This document shows, one piece after another, positions 2,911 through 59,059 of a stretch of DNA of 64,000 nt; position 1 is the stretch's first letter, and every line of letters begins with the position of its first letter. The stretch is from Escherichia phage EC128: sequence record ON210139.1; one strand, given 5' to 3'. A program made the position numbers and the translations under genes. A model generated the notes under the pieces. It saw only the letters and a list, made by a program, of their open reading frames with translations. It ran no database searches and was not told the origin of the DNA.

Positions 2911-3198
2911 ATGAAAACTTTCAAAGAATTTACTTCTACAACTACCCCGGTTTCTACTATTACTGAAGCTACTCTTACTTCTGAAGTTATTAAAGCAAAT
3001 AAAGGACGAGAAGGTAAACCAATGATTAGTTTAGTTGATAGCGAAGAAATCAAAGGTACTGTTTACCTAGGTGATGGGTGGTCTGCTAAAAAGGATGGTG
3101 CTACAATCGTTATCTCTCCTGCTGAAGAAACTGCGTTGTTTAAAGCTAAACACATTTCTGCGGCACATCTCAAGATTATTGCTAAAAATCTTTTGTAA
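2911..3198 (+). CDS. ipI: internal protein I-like, capsid-targeted
   Basis: 95 aa; N-terminus MKTFKEF...TEA resembles the capsid targeting sequence cleaved after Glu; between 57B and tRNAs. Confidence 0.6.
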   Translation: MKTFKEFTSTTTPVSTITEATLTSEVIKANKGREGKPMISLVDSEEIKGTVYLGDGWSAKKDGATIVISPAEETALFKAKHISAAHLKIIAKNLL

Positions 3199-4229: not shown

Positions 4230-4302
4230 TGGGAATTAGCCAAGTTGGTAAGGCACTGGATTTTGATTCCAGGATGCAAAGGTTCGAGTCCTTTATTCCC
4301 AG
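4230..4302 (+). tRNA. tRNA-Gln (anticodon UUG)
   Basis: Cloverleaf: acceptor TGGGAAT/ATTCCCA, anticodon loop TTTTGAT, T-loop TTCGAGT. Confidence 0.85.
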
Positions 4303-4303
4303 C

Positions 4304-4390
4304 GCGAGAATGGTCAAATTGGTAAAGGCACAGCACTTAAAATGCTGCGGAATGATTTCCTTGTGGGTTCGAGTCCCACTTCTCGCACCA
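4304..4390 (+). tRNA. tRNA-Leu (anticodon UAA), long variable arm, CCA encoded
   Basis: Acceptor GCGAGAA/TTCTCGC, anticodon loop CTTAAAA, T-loop TTCGAGT, 3' ACCA. Confidence 0.85.
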
Positions 4391-4395
4391 AATTT

Positions 4396-4469
<74 letters not shown>

Positions 4470-4479
4470 ATTTAATTTA

Positions 4480-4553
4480 CTCCGTGTAGCTCAGTTTGGT
4501 AGAGCGTCTGCTTTGGGAGCAGAATGTCGTAGGTTCAAATCCTGCCACGGAGA
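4480..4553 (+). tRNA. tRNA-Pro (anticodon UGG)
   Basis: Acceptor CTCCGTG/CACGGAG, anticodon loop TTTGGGA, T-loop TTCAAAT. Confidence 0.8.
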
Positions 4554-4555
4554 CT

Positions 4556-4642
4556 GGAGGCGTGGCAGAGTGGTTTAATGCACCGGTCTTGAAAACCGGC
4601 AGTCGCTCCGGCGACTCATAGGTTCAAATCCTATCGCCTCCG
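4556..4642 (+). tRNA. tRNA-Ser (anticodon UGA), long variable arm
   Basis: Acceptor GGAGGCG/CGCCTCC, anticodon loop CTTGAAA, T-loop TTCAAAT. Confidence 0.8.
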
Positions 4643-4644
4643 TT

Positions 4645-4720
4645 GCTGATTTAGCTCAGTAGGTAGAGCAACTCACTTGTAATGAGAAGGTCGGCGGTTC
4701 GATTCCGTCAATCAGCACCA
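4645..4720 (+). tRNA. tRNA-Thr (anticodon UGU), CCA encoded
   Basis: Acceptor GCTGATT/AATCAGC, anticodon loop CTTGTAA, T-loop TTCGATT. Confidence 0.85.
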
Positions 4721-4721
4721 A

Positions 4722-4793
4722 GGCCCTGTAGCTGGAAGGTTCAAGCAAGCGACTCATAATCGCCAGATGGTGGTTCAATTCCACCCAGGGCCA
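4722..4793 (+). tRNA. tRNA-Ile (anticodon CAU, AUA-reading type)
   Basis: Acceptor GGCCCTG/CAGGGCC, anticodon loop CTCATAA, T-loop TTCAATT. Confidence 0.75.
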
Positions 4794-4834
4794 TATTTTG
4801 GGAACATAAATACTCTTAGAAATAGGAGATATTT

Positions 4835-5500
4835 ATGTTCCATTACACTTATAAAATAACAAATAAAATTAATAATAAAATTTATATTGGTGTGCATTCT
4901 ACCGAAAATTTAGATGATGGATATATGGGTTCTGGTAAATTATTAAAAAGAGCCCAAGATAAATATGGTATAGAAAATTTTTCTAAAGAAATATTAGAGT
5001 ATTTTGATGATAAAGAATCTATGCTTGAAGCCGAGAAAAATATTGTCACAGAAGAGTTTTTAAATAGACCAGATGTGTATAATTTAAAACTTGGCGGTGA
5101 AGGTGGATGGGACCATATAAATATTCCTGGGATGCTAAACCAGAAGAAAGACGCTAGTTTAAAAGGAGCTAAATCGTTTAAGTCACGTTTTAAAAATGAT
5201 ATTTTACTTCAAGAAAAATATCGTAAACATGGTTCAAATGTATTTAAACGCTTGTGGTCAACTCCTGAATACAGGGAAAAATTTTTAAATAATAGCAGAT
5301 TTTTAAATAAGCATCATACTCCTGAAACTATTAATAAAATGAAAGAATCTCACGCCAGAAATAAACACCAACAGGGCGAAAAGAATTCCCAATTTGGTAT
5401 GATGTGGATTCATTCATTAGATGAAAAAGTTTCTAAACGTATTAAGAAAACTGACCCAATTCCAGAAGGATGGTTTAAAGGTCGAAAAATGAAATTTTAA
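4835..5500 (+). CDS. segB: GIY-YIG homing endonuclease SegB-like
   Basis: 221 aa; N-terminal YTYKITNKINNKIYIGVHS...DGYMGSG; NUMOD-like basic repeats; inserted between tRNA-Ile and tRNA-Arg. Confidence 0.8.
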   Translation: MFHYTYKITNKINNKIYIGVHSTENLDDGYMGSGKLLKRAQDKYGIENFSKEILEYFDDKESMLEAEKNIVTEEFLNRPDVYNLKLGGEGGWDHINIPGMLNQKKDASLKGAKSFKSRFKNDILLQEKYRKHGSNVFKRLWSTPEYREKFLNNSRFLNKHHTPETINKMKESHARNKHQQGEKNSQFGMMWIHSLDEKVSKRIKKTDPIPEGWFKGRKMKF

Positions 5501-5503
5501 TTA

Positions 5504-5580
<77 letters not shown>

Positions 5581-5895
5581 AACAAGAAGCCGGGTCGCTA
5601 CCGGTAAGTCGTCGGACTGATGTTCCCTGAGTAAGGAATTGCGTTAATAATCTTTGCGTTTATTGATGCCCTCTTACATCACAGCAGAAACGGCGCACCG
5701 AATTATCGATTCGAGGAAATATCTTTGCCGTAAGCCGAGTAGCGTTTTTGACGGAACGTTCGGATATGGTCGAGATATGGCCTTTTAAAAATATTGAGTA
5801 GCGTCAACTACTTAATAACCGGGTTCAAGTCCCGGCGTTTCGTACAAACACTTGCCTTAGCAGGTGGAACCCCGACAAGGTTGCCGCAAGGCTTA
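5581..5895 (+). ncRNA. stable small RNA region downstream of tRNA-Arg (T4 RNA C / RNA D-like)
   Basis: GC-rich non-coding stretch with tRNA-like T-arm CCGGGTTCAAGTCCCGG, ending at a terminator; exact RNA ends not determined. Confidence 0.4.
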
Positions 5896-5922
5896 GCCCC
5901 GACCGAAAGGTTGGGGCTTTTT
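5896..5922 (+). terminator. rho-independent terminator
   Basis: GCCCCGACC-GAAA-GGTTGGGGC stem followed by TTTTT; near-identical copy at 6452. Confidence 0.7.
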
Positions 5923-5924
5923 AG

Positions 5925-5932
5925 TATAAATA
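5925..5932 (+). promoter_or_regulatory. late promoter TATAAATA
   Basis: Exact TATAAATA about 35 nt upstream of the 5969 start. Confidence 0.55.
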
Positions 5933-5968
5933 AGTATATTAAAACCACGATTTAAAACAGGAAATAAG

Positions 5969-6443
5969 ATGAAATCATATGCTCAATTTTTAAATGAAGC
6001 GGTGTTAAATGAAGCATCTAGCACCGAAATTCAAGCTGTCGCAAAAGCAGCCATTGCCGCGGGTAAATATTCCTATAAAGATGCTTCCGATGAATCGCGA
6101 TTCCAGTTCGCACGCGACATGAAAGCGGAAGGATTTACGGGAAATGCAGTTAGTATGGCCTGGAAAAGTTTAGTTGCTACTGGAGCTGCTTTTGCAAAGG
6201 CTTCAGGTAAACCTGCTCCTAAAGCAGATCCTAAAGCTGCACAAGAAAAAAAATATTGTTAAAGGAATTATCTCCAAATATGAAGCTATCCTTAAAGAGC
6301 TTTTAGTAATCAAAACTGAAGGCCAAAAGCTAGCTCGTGCTTATAGTTTCAAAGATAATCCGCATGCTCATGACCTAGAGTATGTTGAAGACATCCAAAA
6401 AATTATTAAAGACCGCATTTGGTCTGCTAAACAAATCAAATAA
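5969..6443 (+). CDS. internal-protein-like gene with capsid-targeting N-terminus, interrupted by a frame change at an A8 run (6246-6253)
   Basis: N-terminus MKSYAQFLNEA; frame A stops at 6260-6262; the next 64 sense codons (to 6443) are in another frame and contain no Met; one fewer A would fuse them. Confidence 0.5.
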
Positions 6444-6451
6444 CATTCTTA

Positions 6452-6478
6452 GCCCCGACCAAAAGGTTGGGGCTTTTG
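6452..6478 (+). terminator. rho-independent terminator (duplicate of 5896 hairpin)
   Basis: AGCCCCGACC-AAAA-GGTTGGGGCTTTT. Confidence 0.65.
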
Positions 6479-18591: not shown

Positions 18592-18777
18592 ATGACAAGT
18601 GAGCAGGCTTTTAAATTAAGAGAATTAATTGAGACGTATAGTAAAGCTGTTCATACATCAACAATTATTGATGAATCAGCTTTCTCCGGACATGCTAACA
18701 AGATTAAATACAAAACTCTTATGGAAGAAGCTAAAGTAAATCTTGATTCTTATATTGAAACTTTAATTGGTAAATAA
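18592..18777 (+). CDS. hypothetical small protein
   Basis: 61 aa, AAAGGAG RBS. Confidence 0.5.
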   Translation: MTSEQAFKLRELIETYSKAVHTSTIIDESAFSGHANKIKYKTLMEEAKVNLDSYIETLIGK

Positions 18778-18778
18778 T

Positions 18779-18928
18779 ATGAAAGCTGTAATTGAAACAA
18801 CTGATTTGTTCGGTGACCTAGTTATCGAAAAACGCGGTAATGTATACGTTCTGACGCAGGAAGACGATAGTATTACTATTCTTCCTATGGAACTGGCTGC
18901 GATTTTATCTTATGCTCCCTCAAACTAA
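18779..18928 (+). CDS. hypothetical small protein
   Basis: 49 aa, below the ORF-track cutoff. Confidence 0.35.
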   Translation: MKAVIETTDLFGDLVIEKRGNVYVLTQEDDSITILPMELAAILSYAPSN

Positions 18929-19307
18929 TATTACAGGTGACCTCCAAGTTCGTTTTTATCGTGGCCTTTACGGCGGTAATATTGAAACTGAATTTATGTG
19001 TCTTTCTATCAACAATTGGGCAACATTCGTTGCCAAGGTGAAAGAATTCTTAGAATCTGAAACAGTCGAAACACCCGAAAAGGCTAAACTTCAATGGGCT
19101 AAAGATCGCGGTGCTAACATTATTAATCCAGTAGCTGCAAACTATACTACGACTTTGGATGTCAAGACTTCTTATGAAGATGGCGATGTCGTACTTGTTC
19201 GCCAAAATGATGATTCTCGAGCACATATTGTCACATTTACCAAAGACGAAGCTATTGCGCTAAAGACTTATCTTGATTCTGTCATTCCAACTATGATTTC
19301 AAAGTGA
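18912..19307 (+). CDS. hypothetical protein, paralog of the next gene
   Basis: 131 aa; C-terminus TKDEAIALKTYLDSVIPTM resembles SKSEAEAMIKYLTTVTPSM of the 19314 product. Confidence 0.5.
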   Translation: MLPQTNITGDLQVRFYRGLYGGNIETEFMCLSINNWATFVAKVKEFLESETVETPEKAKLQWAKDRGANIINPVAANYTTTLDVKTSYEDGDVVLVRQNDDSRAHIVTFTKDEAIALKTYLDSVIPTMISK

Positions 19308-30807: not shown

Positions 30808-31341
30808 CAATTGAAAAAGAAATTGAAGGATTGATTCATAAAACTAATAAAGACCTTTTGAACGAGAATGCTAATAAAGATTCTCGTGTTTTTCCAACTC
30901 AACGGGACCTTATGGCTGGTATTGTGTCTAAACACATTGCCAAAAATATGGTCCCGTCTTTTATTATGAAAGCGCATGAAAGCGGAATTATCCATTTCCA
31001 TGATATTGATTATTCCCCTGCTCTTCCATTTACTAATTGCTGTTTAGTAGATTTAAAAGGAATGCTTGAGAACGGATTTAAGCTCGGTAATGCACAGATT
31101 GAAACTCCTAAATCAATTGGCGTTGCTACTGCAATTATGGCACAAATTACTGCACAGGTTGCTTCCCATCAATATGGCGGAACGACTTTTGCGAATGTAG
31201 ATAAAGTACTTTCTCCTTATGTTAAACGCACCTATGCAAAACATATTGAAGATGCAGAAAAATGGCAAATCGCCGATGCGTTGAATTATGCTCAATCTAA
31301 AACAGAAAAAGACGTATACGATGCATTCCAAGCTTATGAGT
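30804..31341 (+). CDS. nrdD: anaerobic ribonucleotide reductase NrdD, exon 1
   Basis: Frame runs to 31349 but homology to exon 2 resumes at 32381; splice after U31341 inferred. Confidence 0.8.
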
Positions 31342-31545
31342 TAACGTAAGTCAAGCTCATGTAAAATCTGCCTAAAACGGGAAACTCTCACTGAGACAAT
31401 CCGTTGCTAAATCAGCGGTAGCTGTAAATGCCCAACGACTATCCCTGATGAATGTAAGGGAGTAGGGTCAAGCGACCCGAAACGGCAGACAACTCTTAGA
31501 GTTGAAGATATAGTCTGAACTGCATGGCGACATGCAGCTGTTTAT

Positions 31546-31569
31546 CCTCGTATAAATACGAATACGAGG
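31546..31569 (+). promoter_or_regulatory. late promoter TATAAATA embedded in a hairpin that sequesters the intron-ORF RBS
   Basis: CCTCGTA-TAAATACGAA-TACGAGG; GAGG of the stem is the SD for the ATG at 31577. Confidence 0.6.
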
Positions 31570-31576
31570 TGAAACG

Positions 31577-32353
31577 ATGAAATGGAAATTAAGAAAAAGC
31601 TTAAAAATTGACAATTCTGTAGCATTTACCTATATGGTAAGATTTCCTGATAAGTCTTTTTATATAGGTTTTAAAAAATTCAAAACTATATATGGTAAAG
31701 ATACAAATTGGAAAGAATACAATTCGTCATCTAAGCTTGTTAAAGAAAAGCTTAAAGATTATAAAGCTAAGTGGATAATTCTTCAAGTTTTTGATTCTTA
31801 TGAATCGGCCCTTAAACATGAAGAAATGCTTATTAGGAAACATTTTAATAACGAATTTATTCTTAATAAATCTATAGGTGGATATAAATTTAACAAATAT
31901 CCGGATTCAGAAGAACATAAGCAAAAACTTAGTAATGCCCATAAAGGTAAAATCTTATCTTTAAAACATAAAGATAAGATACGAGAGAAATTGATTGAGC
32001 ATTATAAAAATAATAGTAGAAGTGAAGCTCATGTTAAAAATAATATTGGTAGTAGAACGGCTAAAAAGACTGTTTCTATAGCTTTAAAATCCGGAAATAA
32101 ATTTAGAAGTTTTAAATCAGCTGCAAAATTTCTTAAATGCTCTGAAGAACAGGTTAGTAATCATCCAAATGTTATAGATATAAAAATAACAATTCATCCC
32201 GTCCCAGAATATGTTAGAATAAATGACAATATCTATAAATCATTTGTGGATGCTGCTAAAGATTTAAAACTCCACCCAAGTCGTATTAAAGATTTGTGCT
32301 TAGATGACAATTATCCAAATTACATTGTTTCATATAAACGGGTAGAGAAGTAG
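31577..32353 (+). CDS. intron-encoded GIY-YIG homing endonuclease, I-TevII-like
   Basis: 258 aa; FTYMVRFPDKSFYIGF; located inside the nrdD intron. Confidence 0.75.
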   Translation: MKWKLRKSLKIDNSVAFTYMVRFPDKSFYIGFKKFKTIYGKDTNWKEYNSSSKLVKEKLKDYKAKWIILQVFDSYESALKHEEMLIRKHFNNEFILNKSIGGYKFNKYPDSEEHKQKLSNAHKGKILSLKHKDKIREKLIEHYKNNSRSEAHVKNNIGSRTAKKTVSIALKSGNKFRSFKSAAKFLKCSEEQVSNHPNVIDIKITIHPVPEYVRINDNIYKSFVDAAKDLKLHPSRIKDLCLDDNYPNYIVSYKRVEK

Positions 32354-32380
32354 CGAACTCTACTGAACACATTGATGAAG

Positions 32381-57863: not shown

Positions 57864-58028
57864 ATGAAAACATATAAAGAATTTATTAAAGAAGATATGG
57901 TCGCTGGAGATTCAGGTGGTAATCCTGAAAATATCTCTACTGGAACAACATCAGGTGCTGTAGTAAATAAAGGTCCTGAACAGATTCCTAAAAAGAAAAA
58001 AGAGGAATCTAAAGAAAAAGAAGAGTAA
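57864..58028 (+). CDS. small protein with capsid-targeting-sequence-like N-terminus
   Basis: 54 aa, MKTYKEFIKE...; below ORF-track cutoff; directly upstream of gene 61. Confidence 0.4.
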   Translation: MKTYKEFIKEDMVAGDSGGNPENISTGTTSGAVVNKGPEQIPKKKKEESKEKEE

Positions 58029-58030
58029 AA

Positions 58031-59059
58031 ATGTCATCAATACCTTGGATTGATAATGAGTTTGCATACCGTGCATTAGCTCATTTACCTAAATTCACAC
58101 AAGTAAATAATAGTTCAACTTTTAAATTACGGTTTAGATGCCCAGTGTGTGGAGATTCAAAAACCGACCAGAATAAAGCTCGTGGATGGTATTATGGCGA
58201 TAATAATGAAGGAAATATTCATTGTTATAACTGTAACTATCATGCACCAATCGGAATATATTTAAAGGAGTTTGAACCTGATTTATATCGTGAGTATATC
58301 TTTGAAATAAGAAAAGAAAAAGGTAAAAGTCGTCCAGTAGAAAAACCTAAAGAACTTCCTAAACAACCTGAGAAGAAAATAATTAAATCTCTTCCGTCAT
58401 GTGTTAGATTAGATAAACTGACGGAAGACCATCCAATTATAAAATATGTAAAAGCTCGTTGTATTCCAAAGGATAAATGGAAATATCTTTGGTTTACAAC
58501 CGAATGGCCTAAATTGGTTAATAGCATAGCACCGGGAACATATAAAAAGGAAATACCTGAGTCTCGTCTTGTTATTCCAATTTATAATGCTAATGGAAAA
58601 GCTGAGTCTTTTCAAGGACGTGCATTAAAGAAAGATGCTCCTCAAAAATATATCACCATCAAAGCTTATCCTGAAGCAACAAAAATCTATGGAGTCGAAC
58701 GAGTTAAAGATGGTGATGTATATGTTCTAGAAGGACCTATAGATTCACTTTTTATTGAAAATGGTATAGCTATTACGGGTGGTCAATTAGACCTAGAAGT
58801 TGTTCCATTTAAAGATAGACGAGTGTGGGTCTTAGATAATGAACCTCGTCACCCTGACACTATTAAACGAATGACTAAATTAGTTGATGCAGGAGAAAGG
58901 GTTATGTTTTGGGATAAATCTCCCTGGAAATCAAAAGATGTTAATGATATGATTAGAAAGGAAGGTGCAACCCCTGAACAAATTATGGAATATATGAAAA
59001 ATAATATTGCCCAGGGGTTAATGGCTAAAATGCGGCTATCTAAATATGCTAAGATTTAA
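58031..59059 (+). CDS. 61: DNA primase gp61
   Basis: 342 aa; zinc ribbon CPVCGDS...CYNCNYH; Toprim-like core. Confidence 0.9.
   Translation: MSSIPWIDNEFAYRALAHLPKFTQVNNSSTFKLRFRCPVCGDSKTDQNKARGWYYGDNNEGNIHCYNCNYHAPIGIYLKEFEPDLYREYIFEIRKEKGKSRPVEKPKELPKQPEKKIIKSLPSCVRLDKLTEDHPIIKYVKARCIPKDKWKYLWFTTEWPKLVNSIAPGTYKKEIPESRLVIPIYNANGKAESFQGRALKKDAPQKYITIKAYPEATKIYGVERVKDGDVYVLEGPIDSLFIENGIAITGGQLDLEVVPFKDRRVWVLDNEPRHPDTIKRMTKLVDAGERVMFWDKSPWKSKDVNDMIRKEGATPEQIMEYMKNNIAQGLMAKMRLSKYAKI

What the first reader, a model, noticed from the sequence alone, without database searches (positions are those of the whole stretch)
5896..6478. Internal-protein-like gene split at an A8 homopolymer and bracketed by duplicated terminators
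The ORF at 5969 starts with MKSYAQFLNEA, resembling the capsid-targeting sequence of T-even internal proteins, and has a TATAAATA late promoter upstream. It stops two codons after an eight-A run (6246-6253). The following 64 codons, in a frame that differs by a 1-nt shift, contain no methionine and run to 6443, so one fewer A would give a single roughly 158-aa protein. This could be a sequencing error, a pseudogene, or slippage-prone expression. The locus is flanked by two near-identical terminator hairpins (5896-5922 and 6452-6478), as if it were a cassette. As I recall T4 carries ipII/ipIII between denV and e, whereas here e and denV are adjacent.
Basis: partly seen in the sequence, partly recalled or inferred. 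Interest (0 to 1): 0.6.

Follow-up and report, generated by a model that had tools for sequence, protein, structure and literature searches.

The report
Frameshifted internal-protein-like phage gene cassette
A small late gene of a T4-like phage, which carries the N-terminal tag that T4 uses to load proteins into its head, is cut short here by one extra A in a run of A's that changes length repeatedly in related phages; the gene sits in a 556-bp cassette, bounded by a repeated terminator, that T4 itself lacks.

Summary
The window comes from a Tequatrovirus. The ORF at 5969-6262 (97 aa) and the +1-frame stretch at 6252-6443 together are a frameshifted copy of a conserved 157-aa protein (phrog_2280, function unknown). 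About 95% of roughly 400-470 GenBank relatives encode it in one frame with A7; the window has A8.

The A8 allele is not unique. At least 13 GenBank phage records carry it, and the identical 97-aa product occurs on more than 20 isolate and metagenome contigs, on several flanking haplotypes. A6 and A9 alleles also exist. All 18 frameshifted copies examined, the window's included, keep the downstream 63 codons intact. Runs of seven or more A or T are otherwise 10-17-fold depleted in this window.

The N-terminus (MKSYAQFLNE|A) matches the T4 IPII/IPIII capsid-targeting sequence. A TATAAATA motif and a Shine-Dalgarno sequence precede the gene. The fD1 orthologue was detected in purified virions.

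T4 has the empty site with a single hairpin, so the cassette reading holds.

Most likely this is a genuine replication-slippage null or truncation allele of a dispensable internal-protein-like gene. A sequencing error in this window, or functional slippage or phase variation, cannot be excluded.

The parts
5892..5921 (+). Left copy of the 30-nt direct repeat. It contains the intrinsic-terminator hairpin (stem 5895-5918, GAAA loop, T-run). This is the terminator downstream of the tRNA-Arg / rnaD / rnaC unit and corresponds to T4's single hairpin.
   Evidence: T4 has one identical copy downstream of rnaC.
5925..5932 (+). TATAAATA, the T4 late-promoter consensus, 36 nt upstream of the ATG.
   Evidence: It is conserved in relatives, including a homologue only 26-29% identical, and is annotated as a predicted late promoter in fPS-65. 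The motif count in the window is at chance level.
5959..5964 (+). Shine-Dalgarno-like AGGAAA.
   Evidence: It is annotated as a ribosome-binding site at the same place in phage 107.
5969..5998 (+). Capsid-targeting-sequence-like leader MKSYAQFLNE. The predicted prohead-protease site is LNE|A. A second LNE|A follows at codons 13-15.
   Evidence: T4 IPII and IPIII start MKTYQEFIAE|A. The motif MK[ST][YF]x[EQ]F is found at only 3 of 530 ATG-initiated frames in the window. The leader is conserved even where the protein body has diverged to 26-29% identity.
5969..6262 (+). Truncated ORF of 97 aa: leader, N-terminal helical domain, Pro/Ala/Lys linker, then the out-of-frame residues K-Y-C and a stop.
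   Evidence: An AF2 model of the 97%-identical full-length protein P0001 shows a helical domain at 18-71, a linker at 75-87 and a helical hairpin at 88-154.
6246..6253 (+). A8 homopolymer. It is A7 in most relatives, and A6, A8 and A9 alleles are known.
6252..6443 (+). C-terminal 63 codons plus stop in the +1 frame. They encode the helical hairpin of the full-length protein.
   Evidence: These codons are identical to the AdolfPortmann C-terminus.
6448..6477 (+). Right copy of the direct repeat, containing the terminator hairpin (stem 6451-6474, AAAA loop).
   Evidence: It is annotated as a terminator in the G10400 and fPS-65 records.
5922..6477 (+). The 556-bp cassette (late promoter, gene, second terminator) that is absent from T4.
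   Evidence: In T4 the hairpin is followed directly by TTTTTGGTATCTAAGCC. That sequence matches window 6474 onward.

Best explanation
The locus is a late-expressed accessory gene of the T-even 'internal protein' type. The full-length protein is 157 aa. It consists of an N-terminal capsid-targeting leader, a small helical domain, a Pro/Ala/Lys linker and a C-terminal helical hairpin. By analogy with T4 IPI-III it would be loaded into the prohead, trimmed by the prohead protease at LNE|A, and injected with the DNA. The analogy would make its likely role an anti-defence one; that step is inferred, not shown.

The gene sits in a 556-bp module inserted at the terminator downstream of rnaC. The terminator is duplicated at both ends, so recombination between the 30-nt repeats can excise or insert the module. 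T4 represents the empty site.

In this window an extra A in the codons GAA-AAA-AAT (A7 to A8) shifts the frame. Standard decoding then gives a 97-aa product that keeps the leader and the N-terminal domain but lacks the C-terminal hairpin.

The A7 tract is a replication-slippage hot spot. Length variants arise repeatedly and persist at a few per cent because the gene is dispensable on many hosts. The window carries one such natural null or truncation allele. It is not a conserved programmed recoding site.
For: Shown directly:
- Relatives have A7 and a single 157-aa CDS.
- The full-length protein matches phrog_2280 from end to end.
- A8 occurs in at least 13 of about 398 GenBank records that hold the tract, on at least 5 flanking haplotypes. 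A9 occurs in ECO4 and fPS-65 on different haplotypes. A6 occurs in SfPhi01, vB_Eco_F26 and 235Ecol030PP.
- Frameshift alleles also occur on homologues only 62-72% identical in protein sequence (P0008, P0009).
- The exact 97-aa product is on record in 43 blocks of the public assembly collection. These include short-read metagenome assemblies with differing neighbouring genes.
- Against relative ESh25 (46 kb aligned), the window has no other homopolymer frameshift in a CDS, so the assembly is not generally noisy.
- The leader matches IPII and IPIII.
- The hairpin, TATAAATA, Shine-Dalgarno sequence and leader are conserved where the protein body is only 26-29% identical.
- The fD1 orthologue g140 was identified by LC-MS/MS in purified virions under the strict threshold (PMC8309999 Table S3).
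- T4 has the empty site.

Background:
- Internal proteins are readily lost when not under selection (PMC9391042).
- Long A runs are hypermutable through replication slippage (PMC1088944).
Against: - No reads are available, so A8 in this particular window could still be a consensus error.
- All 18 frameshifted copies examined, the window's included, keep the downstream 63 codons intact. That fits young alleles, but it equally fits continued expression of the C-terminus.
- The A7 tract is conserved at nucleotide level across lineages down to about 76% protein identity, while neighbouring synonymous sites vary. This is in a window where A or T runs of 7 or more are 10-17-fold depleted.
- A8 alleles are about 4-6 times more frequent here than at the window's two other coding A7 tracts. 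This hints that the tract may be maintained or the OFF state selected.
- The virion proteomics in fD1 had low specificity: 113-137 of 277 gene products were detected.
- Cleavage, injection and any anti-defence activity are untested.
Confidence: 0.55

Rival explanations
1. Sequencing or assembly error. The phage really has A7 and an intact 157-aa gene, and the extra A is a homopolymer miscall in this assembly.
For: Homopolymer length is the commonest consensus error. A7 is the state in about 95% of relatives. The downstream frame is perfectly intact and identical to that of an A7 relative.
Against: In 46 kb aligned to a relative, this is the only homopolymer frameshift inside a CDS. None of the window's 60 A or T runs of 6 or more lying in the aligned part is shifted within a CDS, apart from this one. 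The same A8 allele is assembled independently in at least 13 GenBank genomes from different laboratories, and in MEGAHIT- and SPAdes-style metagenome contigs. A8 phages therefore do exist.
Confidence: 0.2
2. Functional slippage or a contingency locus. The A tract is kept as a switch. In one version, replication slippage toggles the phage population between a full-length and a C-terminally truncated injected protein (phase variation). In the other, host RNA polymerase or ribosome slippage on A7/A8 makes both isoforms from one template. On the A8 template, loss of one A or gain of two A in the mRNA, or a +1 shift of tRNA-Lys, restores the C-terminus.
For: - Length variants arose independently many times: A6, A8 and A9 on at least 9 haplotypes.
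- No secondary decay was seen in any of the 18 frameshifted copies examined.
- The tract is conserved in a window that otherwise purges such runs: 4 observed against 43-69 expected.
- A8 alleles are enriched relative to two control A7 tracts (0/172 and 4/498 against at least 13/398).
- The frameshift falls at a predicted domain boundary, so the short form keeps a complete N-terminal domain.
- There is precedent for two products from poly-A tracts: C. rodentium tssM1 with A11, and about 10% rescue at an A8 in human apoB (PMC4256274, PMC1088944).
Against: - The out-of-frame arrangement is the minority state, and no deep A8 clade was seen.
- The tract is shorter than the roughly 9 nt at which slippage becomes evident in most bacteria.
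- A -1 ribosomal slip on A_AAA_AAA leads to the wrong frame, giving the 112-aa type of product.
- Enrichment of frameshift alleles is equally expected from relaxed selection on a dispensable gene.
- The GenBank records are phylogenetically non-independent.
- AT-rich codon preference alone (GAA, AAA, AAT) can explain the tract.
Confidence: 0.2

Closest known systems
T4 internal proteins IPI, IPII and IPIII (Ip1-3), and the wider set of T-even Ip genes (Repoila et al. 1994; Nat Commun 2025, PMC12373910)
   Same: Small, non-essential protein with a late-promoter motif. The N-terminal leader is of the type MK[ST][YF]x[EQ]F...E|A. Only the leader is conserved, while the protein body is unrelated. 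Distribution among T-even phages is mosaic. An orthologue is found in virion preparations.
   Different: No detectable similarity to IPII or IPIII beyond the leader. The gene lies between rnaC and e.8, not at the ipI or ipII/III loci. Every record I saw calls it 'hypothetical protein'. Cleavage, injection and GmrSD inhibition are untested. The copy in this window is truncated.
Terminator/promoter-mediated modular shuffling in T4-type phages (PeSL elements, Arbiol 2010 and Comeau 2014, PMC4122927; ip-locus polymorphism, Repoila 1994)
   Same: An indel between close relatives is bounded by a conserved stem-loop regulatory sequence. A related genome (T4) shows the empty site.
   Different: The promoter joined to the stem-loop is a late TATAAATA motif, not an early promoter. 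The repeated element is the terminator alone (30 nt). Some lineages (L020) have a different 3' hairpin.
Genes decoded through transcriptional slippage on poly-A: C. rodentium tssM1 (A11), T. thermophilus dnaX (A9) and Shigella mxiE (run of U in the mRNA; run length T9 from my own knowledge)
   Same: A poly-A run lies immediately upstream of a premature stop, and the remainder of the protein is open in another frame.
   Different: The run here is only A8. The interrupted arrangement is not conserved, since most homologues are in frame. Restoration needs one A fewer or two A more. No RNA data exist.
Classical T4 frameshift hot spots at A runs (rII and lysozyme; Streisinger model) and hypermutable homopolymer tracts in phages (Campylobacter phage poly-G tracts). 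Both are cited from my own knowledge.
   Same: Recurrent +1/-1 length changes occur at a homopolymer within a coding sequence.
   Different: Here the pattern is seen as natural polymorphism across hundreds of isolates, in an internal-protein-like gene. No switching rate or phenotype has been measured.

Membership tests
T-even internal proteins (CTS-bearing injected head proteins) | N-terminal capsid-targeting sequence resembling MKTYQEFIAE (IPII/IPIII) | tested here: met
   MKSYAQFLNE against MKTYQEFIAE gives 5 identical residues and 3 conservative changes out of 10. The motif is found at only 3 of 530 ATG-initiated frames in the window, one of them the ipI orthologue. It is conserved across the family.
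T-even internal proteins (CTS-bearing injected head proteins) | Prohead-protease (gp21) site (L/I)-x-E| at the end of the leader. This motif is taken from established T4 knowledge. | tested here: met
   L-N-E|A is present at residues 8-10, and again at 13-15. Only the sequence motif was tested; cleavage itself was not.
T-even internal proteins (CTS-bearing injected head proteins) | Late transcription | tested here: inconclusive
   TATAAATA lies at 5925-5932 and is conserved in position. It is annotated as a late promoter in fPS-65. However, the motif count in the window equals the chance expectation, and no transcript data exist.
T-even internal proteins (CTS-bearing injected head proteins) | Physical presence in the mature head | tested here: inconclusive
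   The fD1 orthologue g140 (157 aa) is listed as a particle-associated protein by LC-MS/MS. That dataset also reported up to 137 of 277 phage proteins and 672 host proteins. Nothing is known for the truncated allele.
T-even internal proteins (CTS-bearing injected head proteins) | Injection with the DNA, and inhibition of a host defence such as a GmrSD type IV restriction enzyme | not testable with these tools
   There is no Pfam match and no structural match, and no experiments are available.
Programmed transcriptional slippage / recoding site | The interrupted two-frame arrangement is conserved among homologues | tested here: not met
   About 95% of the roughly 400-470 records have A7 in frame. 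All 10 IMG/VR loci are full length; the 8 Tequatrovirus-type loci have A7, and the two distant homologues have no such tract.
Programmed transcriptional slippage / recoding site | Homopolymer long enough for efficient slippage (about 9 or more in most bacteria) | tested here: not met
   The run is A8. The threshold is discussed in PMC1088944, with some exceptions at A8.
Programmed transcriptional slippage / recoding site | Length heterogeneity in the mRNA and a frame-restored protein | not testable with these tools
   This requires cDNA sequencing and mass spectrometry.
Homopolymer contingency (phase-variable) locus | Recurrent, independent tract-length changes | tested here: met
   A6, A8 and A9 alleles occur on at least 9 different haplotypes or backgrounds.
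Homopolymer contingency (phase-variable) locus | High, reversible switching rate with a phenotypic consequence | not testable with these tools
   Only indirect evidence exists: the intact downstream ORF in 18 of 18 frameshifted copies and enrichment over control tracts.
PeSL-type mobile regulatory cassette | Composite stem-loop plus early promoter flanking an indel between close relatives | tested here: not met
   A stem-loop repeat flanks the indel and T4 shows the empty site. The attached promoter motif is late-type, and the right-hand copy has no adjoining promoter; a sigma-70-like site lies about 135 nt downstream.

The most novel reading that the evidence does not exclude
The conserved A7 tract is a phage-encoded contingency switch. 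Replication slippage, possibly together with RNA-polymerase slippage, toggles an injected internal protein between a two-domain form and an N-domain-only form. This would let a lytic T4-like phage hedge between hosts in which the full protein defeats a defence and hosts in which it is useless or is sensed. It would explain four things: why the tract survives in a genome that otherwise purges A or T runs of 7 or more; why A6, A8 and A9 alleles recur on many backgrounds; why they are commoner than at other A7 tracts; and why none of the 18 frameshifted copies shows further decay.
Probability: 0.15. Interest if true: 0.65.

Novelty: new member of a known kind. Interest (0 to 1): 0.4.

Why it matters
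T4 internal proteins Ip1-3 are each specific inhibitors of a different GmrSD type IV restriction enzyme (PMC12373910). Related phages carry many uncharacterised proteins of this type. This analysis identifies one widespread family (phrog_2280), present in hundreds of Tequatrovirus genomes but absent from T4. The family has the hallmarks of an internal protein, yet every record I saw annotates it as hypothetical.

The analysis also shows that the gene carries a length-variable poly-A tract. That tract makes a few per cent of isolates natural knock-outs or truncations.

This has three practical consequences. It gives a ready-made candidate anti-defence gene. It provides natural isogenic-like ON/OFF pairs for host-range tests. 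And it warns annotators that the 97-, 111- and 112-aa 'hypothetical proteins' in many records are frameshift alleles of a single gene.

If the tract proved to be a selected switch, it would be an example of phase variation of an injected protein in a classical lytic coliphage lineage.

Tried and rejected
- I first assumed from memory that the gene sat at the ipI locus. The T4 annotation shows otherwise. The ipI orthologue is at window 2911-3198. This gene lies between rnaC and e.8, where T4 has only an intergenic hairpin.
- Function searches led nowhere. Pfam gave nothing above threshold. PHROGs gave only an unnamed family. Foldseek of an AF2 model (pLDDT 73) found nothing against PDB, and against BFVD it found only the protein's own family. 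BLASTP against IPII and IPIII found nothing. Rfam found nothing in the locus other than tRNA-Arg.
- A -1 ribosomal frameshift on A_AAA_AAA was considered and rejected as a rescue route. It enters the frame that ends after 17 more codons, giving the product type seen in A9 and A6 alleles. Only +1 slippage, or an mRNA with one A fewer or two A more, restores the C-terminus.
- Some sources were unavailable. Repoila et al. 1994 (PMC395341) and the PST/T4 supplementary table are not held, so I could not check whether the gene already has an 'ip' number.
- An IMG/VR pattern scan and protein-guided scans gave only 3 and 10 loci, all with A7 or without the tract. They were too few for a frequency estimate, so the census relies on GenBank phage records.

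Full report
**Observation.**
- An ORF at 5969-6262 encodes 97 aa beginning MKSYAQFLNEA.
- TATAAATA lies at 5925-5932 and AGGAAA at 5959-5964.
- An A8 run occupies 6246-6253 and is followed by TAT TGT TAA.
- The +1 frame from 6252 is open for 63 methionine-free codons, to the stop at 6441-6443.
- Two 10-bp GC-rich hairpins with T-tails have stems at 5895-5918 and 6451-6474, at -20.3 and -19.5 kcal/mol (z about -4).
- The hairpins lie inside a 30-nt direct repeat, 5892-5921 and 6448-6477, with one mismatch and 556 nt spacing. This sequence occurs nowhere else in the 64 kb, and none is expected by chance.
- TATAAATA as a bare motif is no commoner than chance in the window: 10 found against 10.1 expected.

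**Where this is.** The window is from a Tequatrovirus. It is about 96-97% identical to many GenBank T4-like phages and identical to none. Compared with the annotated T4 genome, the + strand runs in this order:
- gp2, gp3, gp1, 57A, 57B;
- ipI (window 2911-3198, one residue different from T4 IPI), then trna.4 to trna.2;
- the tRNA cluster, segB (4835-5500), tRNA-Arg (5504-5580), rnaD and rnaC;
- the gene in question;
- e.8, e.7, e.6, e.5 and onward, then nudE, e and denV.

I had assumed from memory that the gene sat at the ipI locus; that was wrong. It lies between rnaC and e.8.

**The cassette.** T4 has a single copy of the same hairpin downstream of rnaC. It is followed directly by TTTTTGGTATCTAAGCC, the sequence that follows the second hairpin in the window. 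The 556 bp from 5922 to 6477 hold the late-promoter motif, the gene and a second terminator. They are therefore an insertion relative to T4, or a deletion in T4, bounded by a duplicated terminator.

In some relatives the repeat extends through GGTAT. The 5' boundary module consists of hairpin, T-run, TATAAATA, Shine-Dalgarno sequence and the first ~16 codons. It is conserved even in a homologue whose protein body is only 26-29% identical. This is the pattern described for T-even ip genes: a conserved leader with an unrelated body. It also resembles terminator/promoter-mediated module exchange (PMC4122927; PMC3012670). It is not a PeSL in the strict sense, because the attached promoter motif is late-type. 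Some lineages also have a different 3' hairpin.

**What the gene is.** With A7 instead of A8, relatives annotate a single 474-nt CDS of 157 aa. That protein matches phrog_2280, a family of unknown function, from end to end. It has no Pfam match.

An AlphaFold model of the 97%-identical P0001 (mean pLDDT 73) predicts four parts:
- a disordered leader, residues 1-15;
- a helical domain, 18-71;
- a low-confidence Pro/Ala/Lys linker, 75-87;
- a long helical hairpin, 88-154.

Fold searches found nothing outside the family.

Four observations support the internal-protein reading.
- The leader MKSYAQFLNE|A closely resembles T4 IPII and IPIII, MKTYQEFIAE|A. It ends in the L-x-E motif that the T4 prohead protease cuts; that motif comes from established T4 knowledge.
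- Within the window, the pattern MK[ST][YF]x[EQ]F starts only 3 of 530 ATG-initiated frames of 50 aa or more. They are the ipI orthologue, this gene, and a 54-aa ORF at 57864.
- The mature part shows no similarity to IPII or IPIII, as is usual for internal proteins.
- In Yersinia phage fD1 (phiD1), the orthologue g140 (67942-68415, 157 aa) was identified by LC-MS/MS in ultracentrifuge-purified virions under the authors' strict threshold (PMC8309999 Table S3). That dataset was permissive, however: up to 137 of 277 phage proteins were detected.

The internal-protein reading is therefore well supported by sequence and weakly supported by proteomics. Cleavage, injection and function remain inferred.

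**The frameshift in context.** I took a census of GenBank phage records with short queries centred on the tract. A7 is the state in the large majority of the roughly 400-470 records that hold the gene.

| Allele | Records | Product |
|---|---|---|
| A8 | At least 13, including teqhal, PYps55T, SF2-1, AUBRB02, ph0021, PsgM02F, T4_ev240, FJ1 and bov10K1 | 97 aa; the seven records I opened annotate the same 97-aa CDS |
| A9 | ECO4 and fPS-65 | 112 aa |
| A6 | SfPhi01, vB_Eco_F26 and 235Ecol030PP | 111 aa |

These alleles sit on different flanking haplotypes within about 30 nt of the tract. They also occur on homologues only 62-72% identical in protein sequence (P0008 for A8, P0009 for A6). They therefore arose many times.

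The exact 97-aa product of the window is on record in 43 blocks of the public assembly collection. These include short-read metagenome assemblies with different neighbouring genes. A8 phages thus exist in nature and are not an artefact of one laboratory.

Every one of the 18 frameshifted copies I could read, the window's included, keeps the downstream 63 codons intact to the same stop.

**Is this window's A8 real?** I cannot see reads. Against relative ESh25 (46 kb aligned), the only homopolymer frameshift inside a window CDS is this one. Most other 1-nt indels are intergenic or lie in poorly aligned divergent stretches. The one further clear coding case, at window 12922, breaks the ORF in ESh25 rather than in the window. 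Given the low general noise and the known natural frequency of the allele, I put about 0.8 on the A8 being genuine and about 0.2 on a consensus error.

**Programmed or accidental?**

Against a conserved recoding site:
- The interrupted arrangement is the minority state, and I saw no deep A8 clade.
- A8 is shorter than the roughly 9 nt at which transcriptional slippage becomes evident in most bacteria (PMC1088944).
- A -1 ribosomal slip on A_AAA_AAA enters the wrong frame.

Restoration would need an mRNA with one A fewer or two A more, or a +1 shift of tRNA-Lys. Low-level rescue of that kind is plausible. About 10% rescue was reported at an A8 in human apoB, and 20-25% at A11 in tssM1. It is unproven here.

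Some observations nevertheless keep a 'selected switch' reading alive.
- A or T runs of 7 or more are 10-17-fold depleted in the window: 4 observed against 43-69 expected under Markov models. There is a sharp drop between 6 and 7.
- This tract is nonetheless conserved at nucleotide level in lineages down to about 76% protein identity, while neighbouring synonymous sites vary.
- A8 alleles are 4-6 times more frequent here than at the window's two other coding A7 tracts. The counts are 0/172 for dam, 4/498 for e.3, and at least 13/398 here. Fisher p is about 0.001, but the records are not independent.
- The break falls near the predicted domain boundary.

Relaxed selection on a dispensable gene explains these points about as well. 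ipIII, for example, is lost quickly in laboratory evolution (PMC9391042).

**Conclusion.** The finding is real and its description is accurate. The best reading has three parts.
- The locus is a terminator-bounded late-gene cassette, absent from T4.
- It encodes an unnamed internal-protein-like family.
- In this window it carries a +1A allele at a recurrently slipping A7 tract, so standard decoding yields a 97-aa protein with the leader and N-terminal domain only.

This is a new, unannotated member of a known kind, the T-even internal proteins, with an unusually polymorphic homopolymer. It is not a new kind of system. Interest is moderate. It would rise if the tract proved to be a functional switch, or if the protein proved to be an inhibitor of a specific defence.

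Noticed in passing
window 57864-58028 (+): A 54-aa ORF lies immediately upstream of the primase gene 61 (58031-59059), at the position of T4 gene 61.1. It begins MKTYKEFIKE. This is the third and only other CTS-like N-terminus among 530 ATG-initiated frames in the window, yet it sits in an early-gene region.
   Followed up: no
whole window; runs at 6246, 9249, 21336 and 60649: A or T homopolymers of 7 nt or more are strongly avoided: 4 observed against 43 (Markov-3) to 69 (Markov-1) expected. Runs of 6 or more number 60 against 128-185 expected. The three coding runs lie in this gene, in e.3 and in dam; T4's e.3 and dam are, from my own knowledge, non-essential. The dam run and this gene's tract (in its A7 form) use the same codons, GAA-AAA-AAT.
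   Followed up: partly
window 18767-19307 (+), indel at 18923: A 14-nt indel relative to phage ESh25 splits a 184-aa ORF into a 53-aa and a 131-aa ORF in the window. This is a second disrupted small gene, and it is not at a homopolymer.
   Followed up: no
window 31341-32376 (+): The anaerobic ribonucleotide reductase (nrdD-like) ORF is interrupted by a 1036-bp insert that ESh25 lacks. Rfam finds a group I intron at 31306-31537 with 98 bits.
   Followed up: partly
P0014 (Logan contig, 2898 bp): A 94-aa protein joins the N-terminal part of a trna.3-like protein to the last 28 residues of this gene. This implies a deletion that removed the whole tRNA / segB / rnaC-rnaD region in some phage.
   Followed up: no
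window 12922; L025 (ESh25, ON528735.1): The ESh25 record, which is flagged UNVERIFIED, has A7 where the window has A6. This splits a 100-aa ORF that is intact in the window. Homopolymer frameshift alleles in small accessory genes are therefore not confined to the gene studied here.
   Followed up: no
window 4230-5580 compared with L001, L002 and L025: The tRNA cluster differs between close relatives. The window has eight tRNAs with a segB-like GIY-YIG gene before tRNA-Arg, as in T4. AdolfPortmann and phage 107 have extra tRNA-Tyr, tRNA-Asn and tRNA-His and no segB. ESh25 has a homing endonuclease between tRNA-Gly and tRNA-Ser.
   Followed up: no
window 5990-6013 (+): The leader region contains a tandem near-duplication, FLNEA-VLNEA. 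This gives two candidate protease sites, after E10 and after E15. Some homologues have only one copy.
   Followed up: no
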